Shown here one piece after another: positions 13,259 through 64,000 of a stretch of 64,000 nt of DNA (within the stretch, counting starts at the first letter, position 1; the number at the start of each line of letters is the position of its first letter). A program made the position numbers and the translations under genes. The DNA is taken from the sequence record ON645936.1; one strand, 5' to 3'. The stretch comes from Escherichia phage N2. The notes under the pieces were generated by a model, which was not told the DNA's origin, did no database searches, and worked only from the letters and a program-made list of their open reading frames with translations.

Positions 13259-14972
13259 TAACCTCAACTGGTTTGTTGGTGTTGTTGAAGATAGAATGGA
13301 CCCATTAAAATTAGGTCGTGTTCGTGTTCGTGTGGTTGGTCTGCATCCACCCCAAAGAGCGCAAGGCGATGTAATGGGTATTCCAACCGATAAATTGCCA
13401 TGGATGTCAGTTATTCAACCGATAACTTCTGCAGCAATGTCTGGAATTGGAGGTTCTGTTACAGGACCAGTAGAAGGAACTAGAGTTTATGGTCATTTTT
13501 TAGACAAATGGAAAACTAACGGAATTGTCCTTGGCACGTATGGTGGGATAGTTCGCGAAAAACCTAATAGACTTGAAGGATTTTCTGACCCAACTGGGCA
13601 GTATCCTAGACGTCTAGGAAATGATACTAACGTATTAAACCAAGGCGGAGAAGTAGGATATGATTCGTCTTCTAACATTATCCAAGATAGCAATCTAGAC
13701 ACTGCGATAAATCCTGATGATAGACCGCTATCAGAGATTCCAACTGATGATAATCCAAATATGTCAATGGCTGAAATGCTTCGCCGTGATGAAGGATTAA
13801 GACTAAAAGTTTATTGGGATACAGAAGGATATCCGACAATTGGTATTGGTCATCTTATCATGAAGCAGCCAGTTCGTGATATGGCCCAAATTAATAAAGT
13901 TTTATCAAAACAAGTTGGTCGTGAAATTACCGGAAATCCAGGTTCTATTACAATGGAAGAAGCGGTAACTTTATTTGAACGTGATTTGGCTGATATGCAA
14001 CGTGACATTAAATTACATTCTAAAGTTGGCCCAGTTTGGCAGGCAGTTAATCGTTCTCGTCAAATGGCATTAGAAAATATGGCATTTCAGATGGGCGTCG
14101 GCGGTGTAGCTAAATTTAACACAATGTTAACTGCTATGTTAGCCGGAGATTGGGAAAAAGCATACAAAGCCGGTCGTGATTCATTATGGTATCAACAAAC
14201 AAAAGGCCGTGCATCCCGTGTTACCATGATTATTCTTACAGGGAATTTGGAATCATACGGTATTGAAGTGAAAACTCCAGCTAGGTCTTTATCAGCAATG
14301 GCTGCTACTGTAGCAAAGTCTTCTGACCCGGCTGACCCTCCTATTCCGAATGATTCGAGAATTTTATTCAAAGAACCTGTTTCTTCATATAAAGGTGAAT
14401 ATCCGTATGTTCACACAATGGAAACTGAAAGCGGTCATATTCAGGAATTTGATGATACCCCTGGGCAAGAACGATACAGATTAGTTCATCCGACTGGAAC
14501 GTATGAGGAAGTATCACCATCAGGAAGAAGAACAAGAAAAACTGTTGATAATTTGTATGATATAACAAATGCTGATGGTAATTTTTTAGTAGCCGGCGAT
14601 AAAAAGACTAACGTCGGTGGATCAGAAATTTATTACAACATGGATAATCGTCTTCACCAAATAGATGGAAGCAACACAATATTTGTGCGTGGCGATGAAA
14701 CTAAGACAGTTGAAGGTAATGGAACTATCCTAGTCAAAGGTAATGTTACTATTGTAGTTGAAGGTAATGCTGACATTACAGTTAAAGGAGATGCTACTAC
14801 TTTAGTTGAAGGAAATCAGACTAATACAGTAAATGGAAATCTTTCTTGGAAAGTTGCTGGGACAGTTGATTGGGACGTTGGTGGCGATTGGACAGAAAAA
14901 ATGGCATCTATGAGTTCTATTTCATCTGGTCAATACACAATTGATGGTAGCCGTATAGACGTAGGTTTATAA
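13242..14972 (+). CDS. 5: Baseplate hub + tail lysozyme gp5 (cell-puncturing device)
   Basis: 576 aa; MEMISNNLNWFVGVV N-terminus; internal lysozyme domain (MAEMLRRDEGLRLKVYWDTEGYPTIGIGHL); C-terminal VxGxxxxx beta-helix repeats. Confidence 0.95.
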   Translation: MEMISNNLNWFVGVVEDRMDPLKLGRVRVRVVGLHPPQRAQGDVMGIPTDKLPWMSVIQPITSAAMSGIGGSVTGPVEGTRVYGHFLDKWKTNGIVLGTYGGIVREKPNRLEGFSDPTGQYPRRLGNDTNVLNQGGEVGYDSSSNIIQDSNLDTAINPDDRPLSEIPTDDNPNMSMAEMLRRDEGLRLKVYWDTEGYPTIGIGHLIMKQPVRDMAQINKVLSKQVGREITGNPGSITMEEAVTLFERDLADMQRDIKLHSKVGPVWQAVNRSRQMALENMAFQMGVGGVAKFNTMLTAMLAGDWEKAYKAGRDSLWYQQTKGRASRVTMIILTGNLESYGIEVKTPARSLSAMAATVAKSSDPADPPIPNDSRILFKEPVSSYKGEYPYVHTMETESGHIQEFDDTPGQERYRLVHPTGTYEEVSPSGRRTRKTVDNLYDITNADGNFLVAGDKKTNVGGSEIYYNMDNRLHQIDGSNTIFVRGDETKTVEGNGTILVKGNVTIVVEGNADITVKGDATTLVEGNQTNTVNGNLSWKVAGTVDWDVGGDWTEKMASMSSISSGQYTIDGSRIDVGL

Positions 14973-39839: not shown

Positions 39840-40087
39840 TGGAAGGTTTAATTGAAGCTATTAAATCAAACGACCTCGTAGCCGCTCGTAAATTCTTTGC
39901 TGAAGCCATGGCTGCAAGAACGATTGATTTAATTAAAGAAGAAAAAATCGCTATCGCTCGTAATTTCTTAATCGAAGGTGAAGAACCTGATGATGAGGAT
40001 GATGAAGACGAGGATGATGACGAAGATAGCGATGATAAAGACGACAAAAAAGACAAAGACTCTGACGAAGACGAGGATGATGAATAA
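39839..40087 (+). CDS. 67: Prohead core protein gp67 with poly-acidic C-terminus
   Basis: 82 aa; C-terminal Asp/Glu run; position after gene 20. Confidence 0.85.
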
Positions 40088-41180: not shown

Positions 41181-41990
41181 ATGCTTAAAGAACAACTGAT
41201 TGCCGAAGCGCAGAAAATTGATGCTTCCGTTGCTCTTGATAGTATTTTCGAATCAGTTAATATTTCTCCGGAAGCAAAAGAAACTTTCGGCACTGTATTC
41301 GAAGCTACCGTCAAGCAGCACGCCGTTAAATTAGCTGAATCTCATATCGCTAAAATTGCTGAAAAAGCAGAAGAAGAAGTAGAAAAAAATAAAGAAGAAG
41401 CCGAAGAAAAAGCTGAGAAGAAAATCGCTGAGCAAGCTTCTAAATTCATTGACCATCTTGCAAAAGAATGGCTCGCTGAAAATAAATTAGCAGTTGATAA
41501 AGGCATCAAAGCCGAACTGTTTGAATCCATGCTTGGTGGATTAAAAGAGCTCTTTGTTGAACACAACGTTGTTGTTCCAGAAGAATCAGTTGATATTGTA
41601 GCTGAAATGGAAGAAGAGCTGCAAGAACATAAAGAAGAATCAGCTCGTCTGTTCGAAGAACTCAGCATGCGCGACGCATATATCAATTATGTGCAGCGTG
41701 AAGTGGCATTGAGCGAAAGTACTAAAGATCTGACTGAGTCTCAAAAAGAAAAAGTCTCTGCTCTGGTCGAAGGTATGGATTATTCAGATGAATTCTCAAG
41801 TAAATTGAGTGCCATCGTAGAAATGGTGAAGAAGTCTAATAAAGATGAAAGCACTATTACTGAGGGTATAAATACTCCTGATACTGAAGCAGCCGGACTG
41901 AATTTCGTCACTGAAGCTGTAGAAGATAAAGCTGCACCTGGTGCAGAAGATATTGTAAGTGTATATGCGAAAGTCGCATCTCGTTTCTAA
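41181..41990 (+). CDS. 22: Prohead scaffold protein gp22
   Basis: 269 aa as T4 gp22; highly charged helical sequence. Confidence 0.9.
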   Translation: MLKEQLIAEAQKIDASVALDSIFESVNISPEAKETFGTVFEATVKQHAVKLAESHIAKIAEKAEEEVEKNKEEAEEKAEKKIAEQASKFIDHLAKEWLAENKLAVDKGIKAELFESMLGGLKELFVEHNVVVPEESVDIVAEMEEELQEHKEESARLFEELSMRDAYINYVQREVALSESTKDLTESQKEKVSALVEGMDYSDEFSSKLSAIVEMVKKSNKDESTITEGINTPDTEAAGLNFVTEAVEDKAAPGAEDIVSVYAKVASRF

Positions 41991-61447: not shown

Positions 61448-61636
61448 TTAATAATCTAGTGGTAAGAGAGTACGATATATTTCAAACTTTGGCCCTTTTT
61501 CATAGGCATCAAATGTTTCTGTGAATTTATTATAAGCATATGCATCTACAAATTCGAGAACGATTTGTGATACAGAAGTAGAAACATCTCCACCTTCTTT
61601 TTGAGCCACGACAATTGTTTCTAAGTAAGCTTTCAT
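61448..61636 (-). CDS. Hypothetical small protein, translationally coupled to DNA ligase
   Basis: 62 aa ORF; ATGA start/stop overlap with gene 30 stop. Confidence 0.5.
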   Translation of the reverse strand: MKAYLETIVVAQKEGGDVSTSVSQIVLEFVDAYAYNKFTETFDAYEKGPKFEIYRTLLPLDY

Positions 61637-63093
61637 AGACCAGTTACCTCATGAAAATCACCAAATACATCCTCGAATGTATTAGCTTTAGTTTTATCTT
61701 CACGTAAACGAATCGCAATCGGAAGAAATAATTTAACGTAATCAGTGCGGCCATCAGATTTTAACCAACCGTTGCATTCGCACTCTAGAATTTTTCCAAT
61801 ATAATAATTTTGGTTTTCCATAATGCGAGTACGGTCAAGTTCATGTGATTTTACACCAGCTTTATCTTTTAAGCCTGAACCTGCATTGACTTTAATTTTT
61901 CCACACTCTGATTCAAGAATAAATCCACCAGCTTTAGTAGGGTCTTTACGGTGAGGATAAATTCCTACAATTTTTAAATCAACATCAATTACTTCTTTAA
62001 ATTTATAGAGATTTTTTGAACGAGCATTTTCCCACAATCCATCTGTATTTTTGAGAATAATACCTTCAAGACCTTGGTCAATATACTTTTTATAAATTAC
62101 CTTAGCTTCATCTAGGTTATTTACTACTTGGTTTTCAATTAAAATTACTTTATCATATCCTGATGTCATTTGTTCTAGTTTAGAAAAACGTACATCATAT
62201 TTTAAACGAAACGTCGGAAGACCGTATATTTCTACTAACGGAACATAATCCCAGACCTGAAACTTCATGCATTTGGCTTCTTTTTCGGAAATGGTTCCTT
62301 TTAAGGATTTATTGGCGATTCCATTAGAAGCAGTACGAGATTCCGCTACTTCGGCGAATTCTTTAGCTTTGCTAATTTCAGGAGTGTCAAAAAGAAAATC
62401 TAGGCCTTCTGGTTCCTTTTCAACTTGCTCATGGTATACCAATTCGCCATCGATTAACACGCCTTCTGGATGAATCTGGCGGGCTTCAGCAGTCATTTTG
62501 ATTAACTCTTCCTTAAGAAGATCTAATCCTAGGTATTCATTGCCAGCTCGCGATAAAAGACGAACATCATCTAATTCATCACCTCGGACTTCAGCAAAAC
62601 ACCGAGCTCCATCTGCTTTTAACTGCGCAAAAGCTGGAAATTTGATATTCTTACTAATGCCTTTTTCATCATAAGAACTTGCAAGCATTTGAGGTTGTTC
62701 AGGAATTAAACCTGGCCAAACTTTGTTTGCAATAGATACTGAAGCACCGCATTCAAGGTCTCGCATCATAACTCGACGTAGTACTTCAACATCATCCTTT
62801 TTACCATCGGTGATATACCCAGTTAATTCCTCAATTGCTGCATTTCCAGTCAATTTCCGAGTAGCTAACGTAAATTCAATAAAGTCAAGCATATCGGTAA
62901 TGGTCAGCATTCCAAAACTCTGGGTAGCAATACCAGGCTTAGGCCATTTCTTGATATAATACTGTAACCCACGAGAATAAGTCAGACGATATACTCGTTT
63001 AAGCAATTCATTATCTTTATTCTTTTCAAGAATTGCTTGCTTCTGCTTAGTTGATCCAATAGATGCTATTTCATTCAGAATTTTAAGAATCAT
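61633..63093 (-). CDS. 30: ATP-dependent DNA ligase gp30
   Basis: 486 aa; adenylation motif KADGAR; T4 DNA ligase-like N-terminus MILKILNEIASIGSTKQKQAILEKN. Confidence 0.95.
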   Translation of the reverse strand: MILKILNEIASIGSTKQKQAILEKNKDNELLKRVYRLTYSRGLQYYIKKWPKPGIATQSFGMLTITDMLDFIEFTLATRKLTGNAAIEELTGYITDGKKDDVEVLRRVMMRDLECGASVSIANKVWPGLIPEQPQMLASSYDEKGISKNIKFPAFAQLKADGARCFAEVRGDELDDVRLLSRAGNEYLGLDLLKEELIKMTAEARQIHPEGVLIDGELVYHEQVEKEPEGLDFLFDTPEISKAKEFAEVAESRTASNGIANKSLKGTISEKEAKCMKFQVWDYVPLVEIYGLPTFRLKYDVRFSKLEQMTSGYDKVILIENQVVNNLDEAKVIYKKYIDQGLEGIILKNTDGLWENARSKNLYKFKEVIDVDLKIVGIYPHRKDPTKAGGFILESECGKIKVNAGSGLKDKAGVKSHELDRTRIMENQNYYIGKILECECNGWLKSDGRTDYVKLFLPIAIRLREDKTKANTFEDVFGDFHEVTGL

Positions 63094-63226
63094 TGCTCAT
63101 CCTTCAAAGTTTGGTTTACAGCTCTATTATAAATCAATTCATCATTAAGCTCAGGCAAAGACTTATGATATGTAGTTCTAACTTTATTTCCTTGCATCCA
63201 GTGCTTGACGTAAATGAAACCTTGCT

Positions 63227-63358
63227 CTACACATTTTTAAAAATTCGTTCGTCTTTTTGAGCTCGGAATTCTGGATTGCATCTAAAAAATTGATTTACGT
63301 GACCGTAATCACGTGTAGTATTACCTTCATTTTCATAAATAGTGTGAACGACAAACAT
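63227..63358 (-). CDS. Very small hypothetical ORF (30.1-like)
   Basis: 43 aa; TAATG stop/start overlap with upstream ORF; below ORF-track threshold. Confidence 0.3.
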   Translation of the reverse strand: MFVVHTIYENEGNTTRDYGHVNQFFRCNPEFRAQKDERIFKNV

Positions 63359-63888
63359 TAGAATGCTCCTTGGAAAATATTATCACCACTAGTAAATCTA
63401 TTAAAATACCCTGCATCACCAGGCTTAGTATAACTCCACGTATGGAATGGATTCATATGATACGGGTGTGTATAATATGGATTATATGGATGTGTATAAT
63501 ATGGATTATACGGATTAAATCCAGGAGTTCTCCAGGTAGTGTTCCAGCGAAAAGAATCGTTTTTAATCATCTTTTCAATTACATCTTTTATAGCTTTTTC
63601 ACTATCAAAACTTTCTTTATTTTCCTTTGGTGAAAAAAGCTTATTCTCTACATCGTTCCATGTATAAACTCGCTGAGCAGTTTTTGGAATACTGTCACGT
63701 TCCCCTCGAGCCATCCAATAAACTGGAACATTTAATATTTCACTCGCATGATCGCAGTGGTGAGCGAGATCGTCAATATAACAAATTACGTTATATTTCT
63801 CTTTTGCCTTTTTGAACAACTCTTCTTTTGAAGAATCATGGCCACACATCAGTACTTCTGAGAAGGCACCAGGAAAAAGAGCATTCAA
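63358..63888 (-). CDS. Hypothetical protein with C-terminal Tyr/Pro-rich tandem repeat (30.2-like)
   Basis: 176 aa ORF; C-terminus NPYNPYYTHPYNPYYTHPYHMNPFH; may extend upstream if the true start is beyond 63888. Confidence 0.6.
   Translation of the reverse strand: MNALFPGAFSEVLMCGHDSSKEELFKKAKEKYNVICYIDDLAHHCDHASEILNVPVYWMARGERDSIPKTAQRVYTWNDVENKLFSPKENKESFDSEKAIKDVIEKMIKNDSFRWNTTWRTPGFNPYNPYYTHPYNPYYTHPYHMNPFHTWSYTKPGDAGYFNRFTSGDNIFQGAF
63463..63515 (-). repeat. 24-bp tandem direct repeat (2 copies) inside the 30.2-like CDS
   Basis: gtgtataatatggattata at 63468..63486 and again at 63492..63510 (period 24 nt), encoding YNPYYTHP twice. Confidence 0.8.
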
Positions 63889-64000
63889 ATTAAATTGACG
63901 ATTCAGCAGAGCGTCAATAGAATCACCCAGTGCTGTAACAGCTACAAAATTATAATCTTCTTTTAATTTGTTAATTACACACAGAGCATCTTTATATGGA

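What the first reader, a model, noticed from the sequence alone, without database searches (positions are those of the whole stretch)
63358..63888. Tandem 24-bp repeat encoding a Tyr/Pro-rich YNPYYTHP motif at the C-terminus of an early ORF
An exact 19-nt core is repeated with 24-nt period (63468..63486 and 63492..63510), giving NPYNPYYTHPYNPYYTHPYHMNPFH. Short in-frame tandem repeats can expand or contract by slippage, and a Tyr/Pro-rich tail suggests a protein-interaction or low-complexity region. The ORF may also continue beyond the annotated start toward the window end.
Basis: seen in the sequence. Interest (0 to 1): 0.4.

Follow-up and report, generated by a model that had tools for sequence, protein, structure and literature searches.

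The report
Variable tandem repeat in gp30.2 tail
The 24-base repeat is real: it is an in-frame duplication of eight codons (PYNPYYTH) in the floppy, aromatic/proline-rich C-terminal tail of the T4-type phage protein gp30.2, whose body looks like a HAD-family phosphatase. Related phages carry one, two or three copies, so it is an ordinary length polymorphism, not a new kind of element.

Summary
Two 24-nt units (63490-63513 and 63466-63489, minus strand) share an exact 20-nt core, the longest close direct repeat in the window and beyond chance. The window is a Tequatrovirus (T4-like phage). The ORF is the C-terminal 213 codons of gene 30.2, just upstream of genes 30.1 and 30 (DNA ligase). The true start lies about 222 nt past the window end.

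Gp30.2 has a strongly conserved N-terminal region of about 195 residues. It is predicted with high confidence as a HAD-superfamily fold with all four catalytic motifs, and 5'(3')-deoxyribonucleotidases are among its closest solved structures. After one helix comes a tail of about 65 residues that is 29% aromatic and 12% proline and is predicted with low confidence, consistent with disorder.

The repeat lies in this tail. Close relatives carry 1 copy (D5505), 2 copies (at least 29 genomes read directly, about 37 estimated), 2 plus an extra NPY (RPN226) or 3 copies (BYEP01). T4 itself lacks the unit. Every indel is in frame. Tail pN/pS is 0.25-0.9 against 0.00-0.06 for the core. 37 of 92 distant homologues lack a tail.

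The slippage reading is supported. A role as a linker or docking region is plausible but untested. Interest is low.

The parts
63358..64000 (-). 3' part of gene 30.2: 213 codons plus the TAA stop at 63358-63360. The start codon lies about 222 nt beyond the window end.
   Evidence: The frame is open to the window end. The fragment differs at 3 of 213 residues from the 287-aa protein of phage P8. PHROG 420 matches at E 1.7e-56. Gene order matches T4: 30.3, 30.2, 30.1, 30.
63604..64000 (-). Part of the HAD-like catalytic region inside the window. It holds motif II (VTALG, 63925-63939), the motif III Lys (in SSKEELF, 63814-63834) and motif IV (YIDDL, 63766-63780). Motif I (DIDGV) lies outside the window.
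   Evidence: D8, D10, K132, D150 and D151 are invariant and T96 nearly invariant in 92 homologues. AF2 pLDDT exceeds 94 over residues 1-195. Foldseek hits are HAD-superfamily structures, including cdN/mdN deoxyribonucleotidases.
63556..63603 (-). Predicted amphipathic helix (SEKAIKDVIEKMIKND) between the HAD region and the tail.
   Evidence: AF2 predicts a helix at residues 207-220 with pLDDT about 89 in the T4-type orthologue.
63361..63555 (-). Aromatic/Pro/Asn/His-rich C-terminal tail of 65 aa, predicted disordered and hypervariable among relatives.
   Evidence: Composition is Y9 F7 W3 P8 N7 T8 H4 out of 65. pLDDT is 43-61 in the T4-type model and 45-63 in the P0039 model. pN/pS is 0.25-0.9 against 0.00-0.06 in the core. 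DNA identity to most Tequatrovirus records drops to 60-80% here, against 90-95% for the whole 1-kb region.
63490..63513 (-). Repeat unit 1: CCGTATAATCCATATTATACACAT = PYNPYYTH.
63466..63489 (-). Repeat unit 2: CCATATAATCCATATTATACACAC = PYNPYYTH.
   Evidence: This unit is absent in D5505 and present twice more in BYEP01.
63454..63465 (-). Partial third unit: CCGTATCATATG = PYHM.
   Evidence: TRF reports 2.3 copies.
63356..63371 (-). Junction of 30.2 and 30.1: a Shine-Dalgarno-like AAGGAG inside the last codons (QGAF) of 30.2, and an overlapping stop/start TAATG.
   Evidence: Sequence. The last 27 nt of 30.2 are nearly invariant in 10 alleles. Translational coupling is an inference.

Best explanation
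The feature is a tandem duplication of 8 codons (24 nt) inside the low-complexity C-terminal tail of gp30.2. Gp30.2 is a conserved T4-like phage protein whose body looks like a Mg-dependent HAD-type phosphatase with a deoxyribonucleotidase-like cap.

The tail is built from short (N/H)-P-(Y/F) modules. Their codons (AAT CCA TAT ...) form nested 9-nt and 24-nt direct repeats, and each 24-nt unit holds an internal quasi-palindrome (GTATAAT-CCAT-ATTATAC). Slipped-strand mispairing or unequal recombination between these repeats occasionally adds or removes whole units. This gives alleles with 1, 2, 2.4 or 3 units.

Because the tail is unstructured and sits outside the catalytic region, in-frame length changes are tolerated. 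Out-of-frame changes would be removed, because they would destroy the conserved end of the protein and the coupled start of gene 30.1.

Shown here: the repeat, its polymorphism, the HAD fold and motifs, the low-confidence tail and the relaxed constraint. Inferred: the slippage mechanism, and that the tail acts as a flexible spacer or weak multivalent contact region carrying a terminal docking motif, so that copy number changes only spacer length or the number of Pro-aromatic contact points.
For: The repeat is real and beyond chance. Natural copy-number alleles sit in otherwise near-identical sequence: D5505 has 1 unit, the window, P8 and Shfl2 have 2, RPN226 has an extra NPY, and BYEP01 has 3. 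Other in-frame micro-duplications occur in the same tail: SG (TAGTGG x2) in Shfl2, SCS4 and Some, and PFH x2 in Some. Independent duplications occur in the tails of distant homologues: PMTPCDP x2 in P0046 and PHFFDP x2 in P0057. AF2 gives high confidence for residues 1-195 and pLDDT below about 60 for the tail in two lineages. HAD-fold matches come, with weak sequence support, and catalytic residues are invariant. Core pN/pS is 0.00-0.06 and tail pN/pS is 0.25-0.9. 37 of 92 homologues have no tail. Tails in different genera keep short motifs at a fixed distance from the C-terminus, for example G(T)GIEYLxxQPT in 17 clusters. Tails are enriched in Pro (10.7% against 4.3% in the core) and Trp (3.6% against 1.3%). 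The internal palindrome comes from the RNA fold of the repeat.
Against: No binding partner was identified and no interaction could be tested. In this window's allele the widely conserved GIEYLxxQPT motif is degenerate (GDAGYFNRFT; 3.5 bits, E = 2 against the motif HMM). That weakens the docking-motif idea for this phage. AF2's low confidence may partly reflect a poorly aligned tail in the input alignment and not true disorder, and 29% aromatic content is unusually high for a disordered segment. The 2-copy allele is the great majority of its haplotype, so slippage is rare. The reading frame could be kept solely for translational coupling to 30.1, without any function for the tail peptide.
Confidence: 0.8

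Rival explanations
1. The tail, repeat included, is functionless filler. It is a dispensable low-complexity appendage that drifts by slippage and point mutation. Its frame is kept only so that ribosomes reach the overlapping 30.1 start.
For: Tail pN/pS is 5-10 times higher than in the core. 37 of 92 homologues lack a tail. The conserved EY motif has decayed in this allele. The tail alone has no relatives outside the family.
Against: Tail pN/pS is still below 1 in all 9 pairs. The Pro/Trp-rich composition is kept across genera. Several short motifs are conserved at fixed distances from the C-terminus across many clusters. No frameshifted or truncated tail was seen among the 19 Tequatrovirus-type tails read in full: 13 phage records, 5 of the 6 IMG/VR loci and the window.
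Confidence: 0.3
2. The repeat is a DNA- or RNA-level signal and not a coding feature. It could be a promoter (each unit carries TATAAT on both strands) or an mRNA hairpin that affects 30.1 or ligase expression.
For: The promoter scan finds TGGAGA-18-TATAAT at 63534-63505 on the minus strand, matching 10 of 12 positions. The mRNA-strand fold has z = -2.6, with a hairpin in each unit.
Against: Promoter-like hits in the region are barely above shuffles (9 against 4.5 +/- 2.2). TATAAT follows directly from the Tyr-Asn codons TAT-AAT. T4 and most Tequatrovirus alleles lack the unit entirely. There is no Rfam match. The only promoter annotated by depositors nearby is a middle promoter inside 30.1.
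Confidence: 0.04
3. The repeat is a phase-variable contingency switch that turns gp30.2 or 30.1 on and off.
For: It is a tandem repeat inside a coding region, and copy number does vary.
Against: The unit lengths (24, 9 and 6 nt) are all multiples of 3, and every observed allele stays in frame. Copy-number change therefore cannot switch expression.
Confidence: 0.01
4. The duplication is a sequencing or assembly artefact.
For: The same window carries a private 1-nt homopolymer deletion in gene 30.1 that may be a sequencing error.
Against: 29 other phage genome records listed span 161-163 nt against the 187-nt three-copy query, which is the 2-copy length, and about 37 are estimated in all. A 24-nt unit is far shorter than any read length.
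Confidence: 0.01

Closest known systems
Bacteriophage T4 gene 30.2 product (NP_049815.1, 278 aa, 'hypothetical protein'; PHROG 420)
   Same: It is the orthologue. It occupies the same position between 30.3 and 30.1/ligase. The first roughly 220 residues are nearly identical, and the tail framework is the same...FxWNTTWRTPGFNPYNP...TW.Y.KPG...GDNIFQGAF.
   Different: T4 has no PYNPYYTH unit (NPYNPYHPYQTHPFQ) and keeps GGIEYLYNRPT where the window has GDAGYFNRFT. No experimental function is on record. Four literature searches returned nothing relevant: one was rejected for a too-short term, two found no papers, and one found only an unrelated paper.
HAD-superfamily 5'(3')-deoxyribonucleotidases (cdN/mdN; Pfam NT5C PF06941; e.g. 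PDB 2jao, 2i7d, 4yih, 1q92)
   Same: The predicted fold matches, with TM-score 0.63-0.66 normalised to the target. The DxDG(V) nucleophile motif aligns. The Lys and DD motifs are conserved.
   Different: Sequence similarity is marginal: profile E = 0.055 against 2jao, and no Pfam hit for the T4-type protein. Other HAD enzymes (haloacid dehalogenases, epoxysuccinate hydrolase, YfnB) score equally well. These enzymes have no aromatic/Pro-rich tail. Substrate is unknown.
Disordered linker plus conserved tip, as in bacterial SSB (variable Gly/Pro/Gln-rich linker with repeated elements and a conserved C-terminal tip) and T4 gp32's C-terminal tail. This comparison rests on general knowledge and is an analogy only.
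   Same: A folded domain is followed by a compositionally biased segment of variable length and low constraint. That segment carries short repeated modules and, in many homologues, a conserved short motif near the C-terminus.
   Different: There is no sequence relationship. The tail here is aromatic/Pro/Asn-rich, not Gly/Gln-rich or acidic. No partner is known, and the conserved motif is degenerate in this allele.
Structural coding repeats such as the gp5 beta-helix octapeptide VxGxxxxx, also a 24-nt period, present in this same window at 14706-14840
   Same: Both are in-frame repeats of 24 nt (8 residues) in a phage protein.
   Different: By general knowledge, the gp5 repeats are old, diverged (70-75% matches) and build a rigid fold. 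The gp30.2 repeat is recent (20 of 24 nt exact), copy-number polymorphic among near-identical phages, and lies in a segment predicted to be unstructured.

Membership tests
T4 gp30.2 family (PHROG 420) | Significant sequence match to the family profile | tested here: met
   The window fragment matches at E 1.7e-56 and the full-length P8 orthologue at E 3.3e-89. The fragment differs from P8 at 3 of 213 residues.
T4 gp30.2 family (PHROG 420) | Conserved position directly upstream of 30.1 (DUF3045) and the gene 30 DNA ligase, on the same strand | tested here: met
   Window ORFs. Annotated relatives.
HAD superfamily phosphatase | Motif I DxDx(T/V) nucleophile | tested here: inconclusive
   DIDGV is present and D8/D10 are invariant in orthologues and 92 homologues. 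This part of the gene lies beyond the window end, so it cannot be read for this phage.
HAD superfamily phosphatase | Motif II Thr/Ser, motif III Lys, motif IV acidic pair | tested here: met
   VTALG (63925-63939), K in SSKEELF (63814-63834) and YIDDL (63766-63780) are in the window. K132, D150 and D151 are invariant and T96 is at least 90% conserved.
HAD superfamily phosphatase | Rossmann-like core with an inserted helical cap | tested here: met
   The AF2 model has pLDDT above 94 over residues 1-195. 106 PDB matches have E <= 1e-3, and the 50 listed are nearly all HAD-superfamily entries. 13 of 92 members weakly hit PF00702.
HAD superfamily phosphatase | Mg-dependent phosphoryl-transfer activity | not testable with these tools
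   Requires a biochemical assay.
5'(3')-deoxyribonucleotidase (Pfam NT5C, PF06941) | Match above Pfam's gathering score | tested here: not met
   The T4-type protein has no Pfam hit at E <= 1. Only 6 of 92 homologues hit NT5C, best E 1.2e-4. The resemblance is structural only, so I do not file it as a member.
Coding tandem repeat with copy-number polymorphism (VNTR-type) | Head-to-tail units, unit length a multiple of 3, different copy numbers in close relatives | tested here: met
   for the repeat. for alleles with 1, 2, 2+NPY and 3 copies.
Phase-variable contingency locus | Copy-number change shifts the reading frame or promoter spacing and switches expression | tested here: not met
   All units are 6, 9 or 24 nt and all alleles are in frame.

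The most novel reading that the evidence does not exclude
The gp30.2 tail could be a tunable tether. A disordered spacer made of Pro-aromatic modules would end in a short docking motif: G(T)GIEYLxxQPT in many genera, and other motif classes elsewhere. This would place the HAD phosphatase on a phage or host partner, such as the replication or nucleotide-synthesis machinery. Repeat gain and loss, and motif replacement as in this window's GDAGYFNRFT allele, would then retune or re-target the contact, possibly in response to host differences. The single metagenomic fusion of the HAD region directly to the 30.1 (DUF3045) domain (P0014) would fit a functional link between the two neighbouring genes.
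Probability: 0.2. Interest if true: 0.45.

Novelty: new member of a known kind. Interest (0 to 1): 0.15.

Why it matters
The finding matters little in itself. It is a textbook in-frame tandem duplication in a tolerant, low-complexity tail, and the 2-copy form is common among sequenced T4-like phages. Three small gains follow. (1) It gives a clear annotation for a "hypothetical" T4 core-region gene: a HAD-type phosphatase body with intact catalytic motifs plus a variable tail. (2) The tail is a divergence hotspot in an otherwise highly conserved gene, so it could serve as a typing marker among Tequatrovirus isolates. (3) The short motifs conserved near the tail end across genera hint at an unidentified binding partner, which would be the way into the function of gp30.2.

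Tried and rejected
- Literature: four searches (gp30.2; gene 30.2; 30.1/30.2/30.3 with phage T4) returned nothing relevant.
- Family libraries: Pfam and NCBIfam gave no usable family for the T4-type protein. PDB sequence search with the single protein found nothing; the profile gave only E = 0.055 to cdN.
- Tail alone: no PHROG. Among 1.84 billion representative proteins it found only a fragment of the same gene and two marginal low-complexity matches. The tail is therefore not a mobile module shared with other protein families.
- Shared docking motif: an HMM of the conserved GIEYLxxQPT tail motif found no other ORF in the 64-kb window, and even the window's own tail scores only 3.5 bits. I found no evidence for a docking motif shared with other phage proteins in the window.
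- Intramolecular docking: a second AF2 run on a homologue with the intact motif (P0039) gave only a low-confidence helical turn at the motif (pLDDT about 56) and no confident docking onto the body. The idea is unsupported.
- Other readings rejected: the promoter or RNA-element reading, phase variation (all indels in frame) and assembly artefact (many independent genomes).
- IMG/VR scan: only 6 related loci, none with the PYNPYYTH duplication.

Full report
**1. The observation**

Tandem Repeats Finder reports a 24-nt period with 2.3 copies and 90% matches at 63460-63515, and a nested 9-nt sub-period. The exact shared core is 20 nt (63467-63486 = 63491-63510), one base longer than reported. It is the longest close-range exact direct repeat in the whole 64-kb window. 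In 100 first-order Markov random sequences none exceeded 15 nt.

On the minus strand the frame reads ...TPGFNPYNPYYTHPYNPYYTHPYHMNPFHTW.... The units are:
- unit 1, 63490-63513, PYNPYYTH;
- unit 2, 63466-63489, PYNPYYTH;
- a partial third unit, 63454-63465, PYHM.

35 residues follow the second full unit: 8 complete the quoted peptide and 27 more run to the stop. "C-terminal region" is therefore more accurate than "C-terminus".

**2. What the ORF is**

The neighbouring 486-aa ORF (61633-63093, minus strand) is the T4-type ATP-dependent DNA ligase. The 1-kb region matches 501 phage records, almost all Tequatrovirus, at 90-99% identity.

In annotated relatives the gene order on this strand is 30.3, 30.2, 30.1 (DUF3045), 30 (ligase). 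The finding's ORF is gene 30.2. The TTG start at 63888 is only the first start codon that the ORF lister could see. The frame stays open to base 64000. Full-length orthologues are 274-295 aa, with 74 codons preceding the window's first codon. The true start therefore lies about 222 nt past the window end. The fragment differs from phage P8's protein at 3 of 213 residues and matches PHROG 420 ("unknown function") at E 1.7e-56.

**3. The body of the protein**

Pfam and NCBIfam give nothing for the T4-type protein. A search of 5.8 billion proteins returned 100 homologues of 176-347 aa. Their common core is the first roughly 190 residues.

In a 92-sequence alignment D8, D10, K132, D150 and D151 are invariant and T96 is nearly so. 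These are the four HAD motifs: DxDG(V), T, K and DD. AlphaFold2 with this alignment gives pLDDT above 94 for residues 1-195. Foldseek places the model in the HAD superfamily. Mouse and human 5'(3')-deoxyribonucleotidases are among the best matches (2jao, 2i7d, 4yih, 1q92; target-normalised TM 0.63-0.66), but haloacid dehalogenases and other HAD enzymes score equally well.

Sequence-level support is weak:
- the profile against PDB gives E = 0.055 to 2jao, aligned at the nucleophile motif;
- 13 of 92 members touch PF00702 and 6 touch NT5C.

I conclude that gp30.2 most likely works as a HAD-type phosphatase. I do not file it as an NT5C member. Motifs II-IV lie inside the window; motif I lies outside it.

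**4. The tail**

After a predicted helix (residues 207-220 of the T4-type protein, window 63556-63603), the last roughly 65 residues (window 63361-63555) have this composition: Y9, F7, W3, P8, N7, T8, H4. That is 29% aromatic and 12% proline, with no Leu, Val, Glu or Cys.

AF2 confidence falls to 43-61 in the T4-type model. In a second model, of a Klebsiella-phage homologue, it falls to 45-63, with only a low-confidence helical turn at a conserved motif.

Across the family:
- 37 of 92 homologues have no tail;
- the 55 long tails are enriched in Pro (10.7% against 4.3% in the core) and Trp (3.6% against 1.3%) but are not alignable as a whole;
- they fall into classes with short motifs at a fixed distance from the C-terminus: G(T)GIEYLxxQPT (17 clusters), L(K/R)A(Y/F)(Y/F) (13), PMTPCDP (10), (Y)xLLN...ND, and ALLGM.

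T4 keeps GGIEYLYNRPT. The window's allele has GDAGYFNRFT, which scores only 3.5 bits against the motif HMM, and no other ORF in the window carries the motif. The tail alone has no PHROG and no meaningful relatives among 1.84 billion representative proteins.

**5.

Within Tequatrovirus the last 243 nt of the gene are a divergence hotspot. 357 of 499 records fall to 60-80% identity there, whereas the whole 1-kb region is at 90-95% in 437 of 501 records. Matched lengths are 205-243 nt, and longer alleles (249, 252 and 267 nt) appear.

Protein and DNA alignments of 13 phage records plus 6 IMG/VR loci show the following.

| Allele | Tail sequence or change | Where seen |
|---|---|---|
| 1 unit | exact 24-nt deletion | D5505 |
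| 2 units | as in the window | window, P8, Shfl2 and others |
| 2 units + 9 nt | extra NPY | RPN226 |
| 3 units | NPYNPYYTHPYNPYYTHPYNPYYTHPYH | BYEP01 |
| no unit | NPYNPYHPYQTHPFQ | T4 |

A synthetic 3-copy query was covered at 80% or more by 39 records. BYEP01 alone spans the full 187 nt. The other 29 listed rows span 161-163 nt, which is 2 copies. The total of about 37 two-copy records is an estimate, since only 30 of the 39 rows were shown. D5505 is the only record with at least 99% identity to the 1-copy allele. The 2-copy form is therefore the stable majority of its haplotype, and changes are rare.

The same tail shows other in-frame micro-duplications: TAGTGG x2 (SG) in Shfl2, SCS4 and Some, and PFH x2 in Some. 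Distant homologues show independent ones: PMTPCDP x2 in P0046 and PHFFDP x2 in P0057. Every indel seen is a multiple of 3.

**6. Selection**

Nei-Gojobori-style counts on nine allele pairs give pN/pS of 0.00-0.06 for codons 1-220 and 0.25-0.90 for the tail. Constraint on the tail is strongly relaxed but not absent, and there is no sign of positive selection.

The final 27 nt are nearly invariant. They contain AAGGAG six bases before the 30.1 ATG, which overlaps the 30.2 stop (TAATG, 63356-63371). Part of the pressure to keep the frame may therefore come from translational coupling. That is an inference.

**7. Rival readings**

- DNA or RNA signal: each unit carries TATAAT, and the scan finds one -35/-10-like site. 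Such hits are barely above shuffles (9 against 4.5 +/- 2.2), and TATAAT is simply Tyr-Asn codons. The mRNA strand folds with z = -2.6, owing to an internal palindrome in each unit (GTATAAT-CCAT-ATTATAC). That palindrome may favour slippage, but there is no Rfam match, and most relatives lack the unit.
- Phase variation is excluded because all alleles are in frame.
- Artefact is excluded by the many independent genomes.

**8. Mechanism and verdict**

The most likely account is this. Nested 9- and 24-nt direct repeats, created by the (N/H)-P-(Y/F) codon pattern, occasionally misalign during replication or recombination. This adds or removes whole modules in an unstructured tail outside the catalytic region, so in-frame variants survive.

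What the tail does is not shown. My preferred reading, at about 0.2-0.3 probability, is a flexible spacer with Pro-aromatic contact points and a terminal docking motif for an unknown partner. The main rival is tolerated filler.

The finding is real and correctly read by the first stage, but it is an ordinary kind of polymorphism in a known though uncharacterised T4 gene. Four literature searches found no paper on gp30.2.

Noticed in passing
window 63090-63358 (-), homopolymer at 63234-63238: Gene 30.1 (DUF3045, 89 aa in T4 and P8) is frameshifted in this window. The run is T5 on the + strand (A5 on the coding strand), against A6 in T4 and P8 and A7 in RPN226. This splits the gene into ORFs of 43 aa and 35 aa. 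None of 497 phage records shares the A5 form; the best identity is 98.8%. It is either a private mutation or a homopolymer sequencing error.
   Followed up: yes
window 63356-63371 (-): The 30.2 stop overlaps the 30.1 start (TAATG), and an AAGGAG Shine-Dalgarno sequence lies inside the last codons (QGAF) of 30.2. The last 27 nt of 30.2 are nearly invariant in 10 alleles even though the tail around them is hypervariable. This suggests translational coupling.
   Followed up: partly
proteins P0005, P0015, P0026-P0053 (homologues of gp30.2): A short motif, G(T)GIEYLxxQPT, sits 18-22 residues from the C-terminus in 17 protein clusters from several T4-like genera, inside otherwise unalignable tails. 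Other tail classes carry L(K/R)AYY or PMTPCDP plus LLN..ND. These look like short docking motifs for an unknown partner.
   Followed up: partly
protein P0014 (302 aa, 1378-nt metagenomic contig): The gp30.2 HAD region appears fused directly to a DUF3045 (gp30.1-like, PF11243) domain, with no aromatic tail. It could be a true gene fusion linking the two neighbours functionally, or a frameshift or assembly artefact.
   Followed up: no
proteins P0067 and P0069 (Yersinia phage phiR1-RT type, 312-328 aa): These homologues replace the low-complexity tail with a different C-terminal extension of about 110 residues that does not look low-complexity. The extension was not examined separately.
   Followed up: no
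window 14706-14840 (+): This is the other 24/48-nt tandem repeat in the window (5.2 copies, 70-75% matches). It lies in the C-terminal part of a 576-aa ORF that looks like the gp5 baseplate hub/lysozyme. By general knowledge these are the beta-helix VxGxxxxx octapeptide repeats.
   Followed up: partly
window 4449-4475, 39988-40027, 41371-41411: Three further short tandem repeats were reported by TRF: a 12-nt unit x2.2, TGATGATGACGA x3.3, and a 21-nt AAG/A-rich unit x1.9. None was examined.
   Followed up: no
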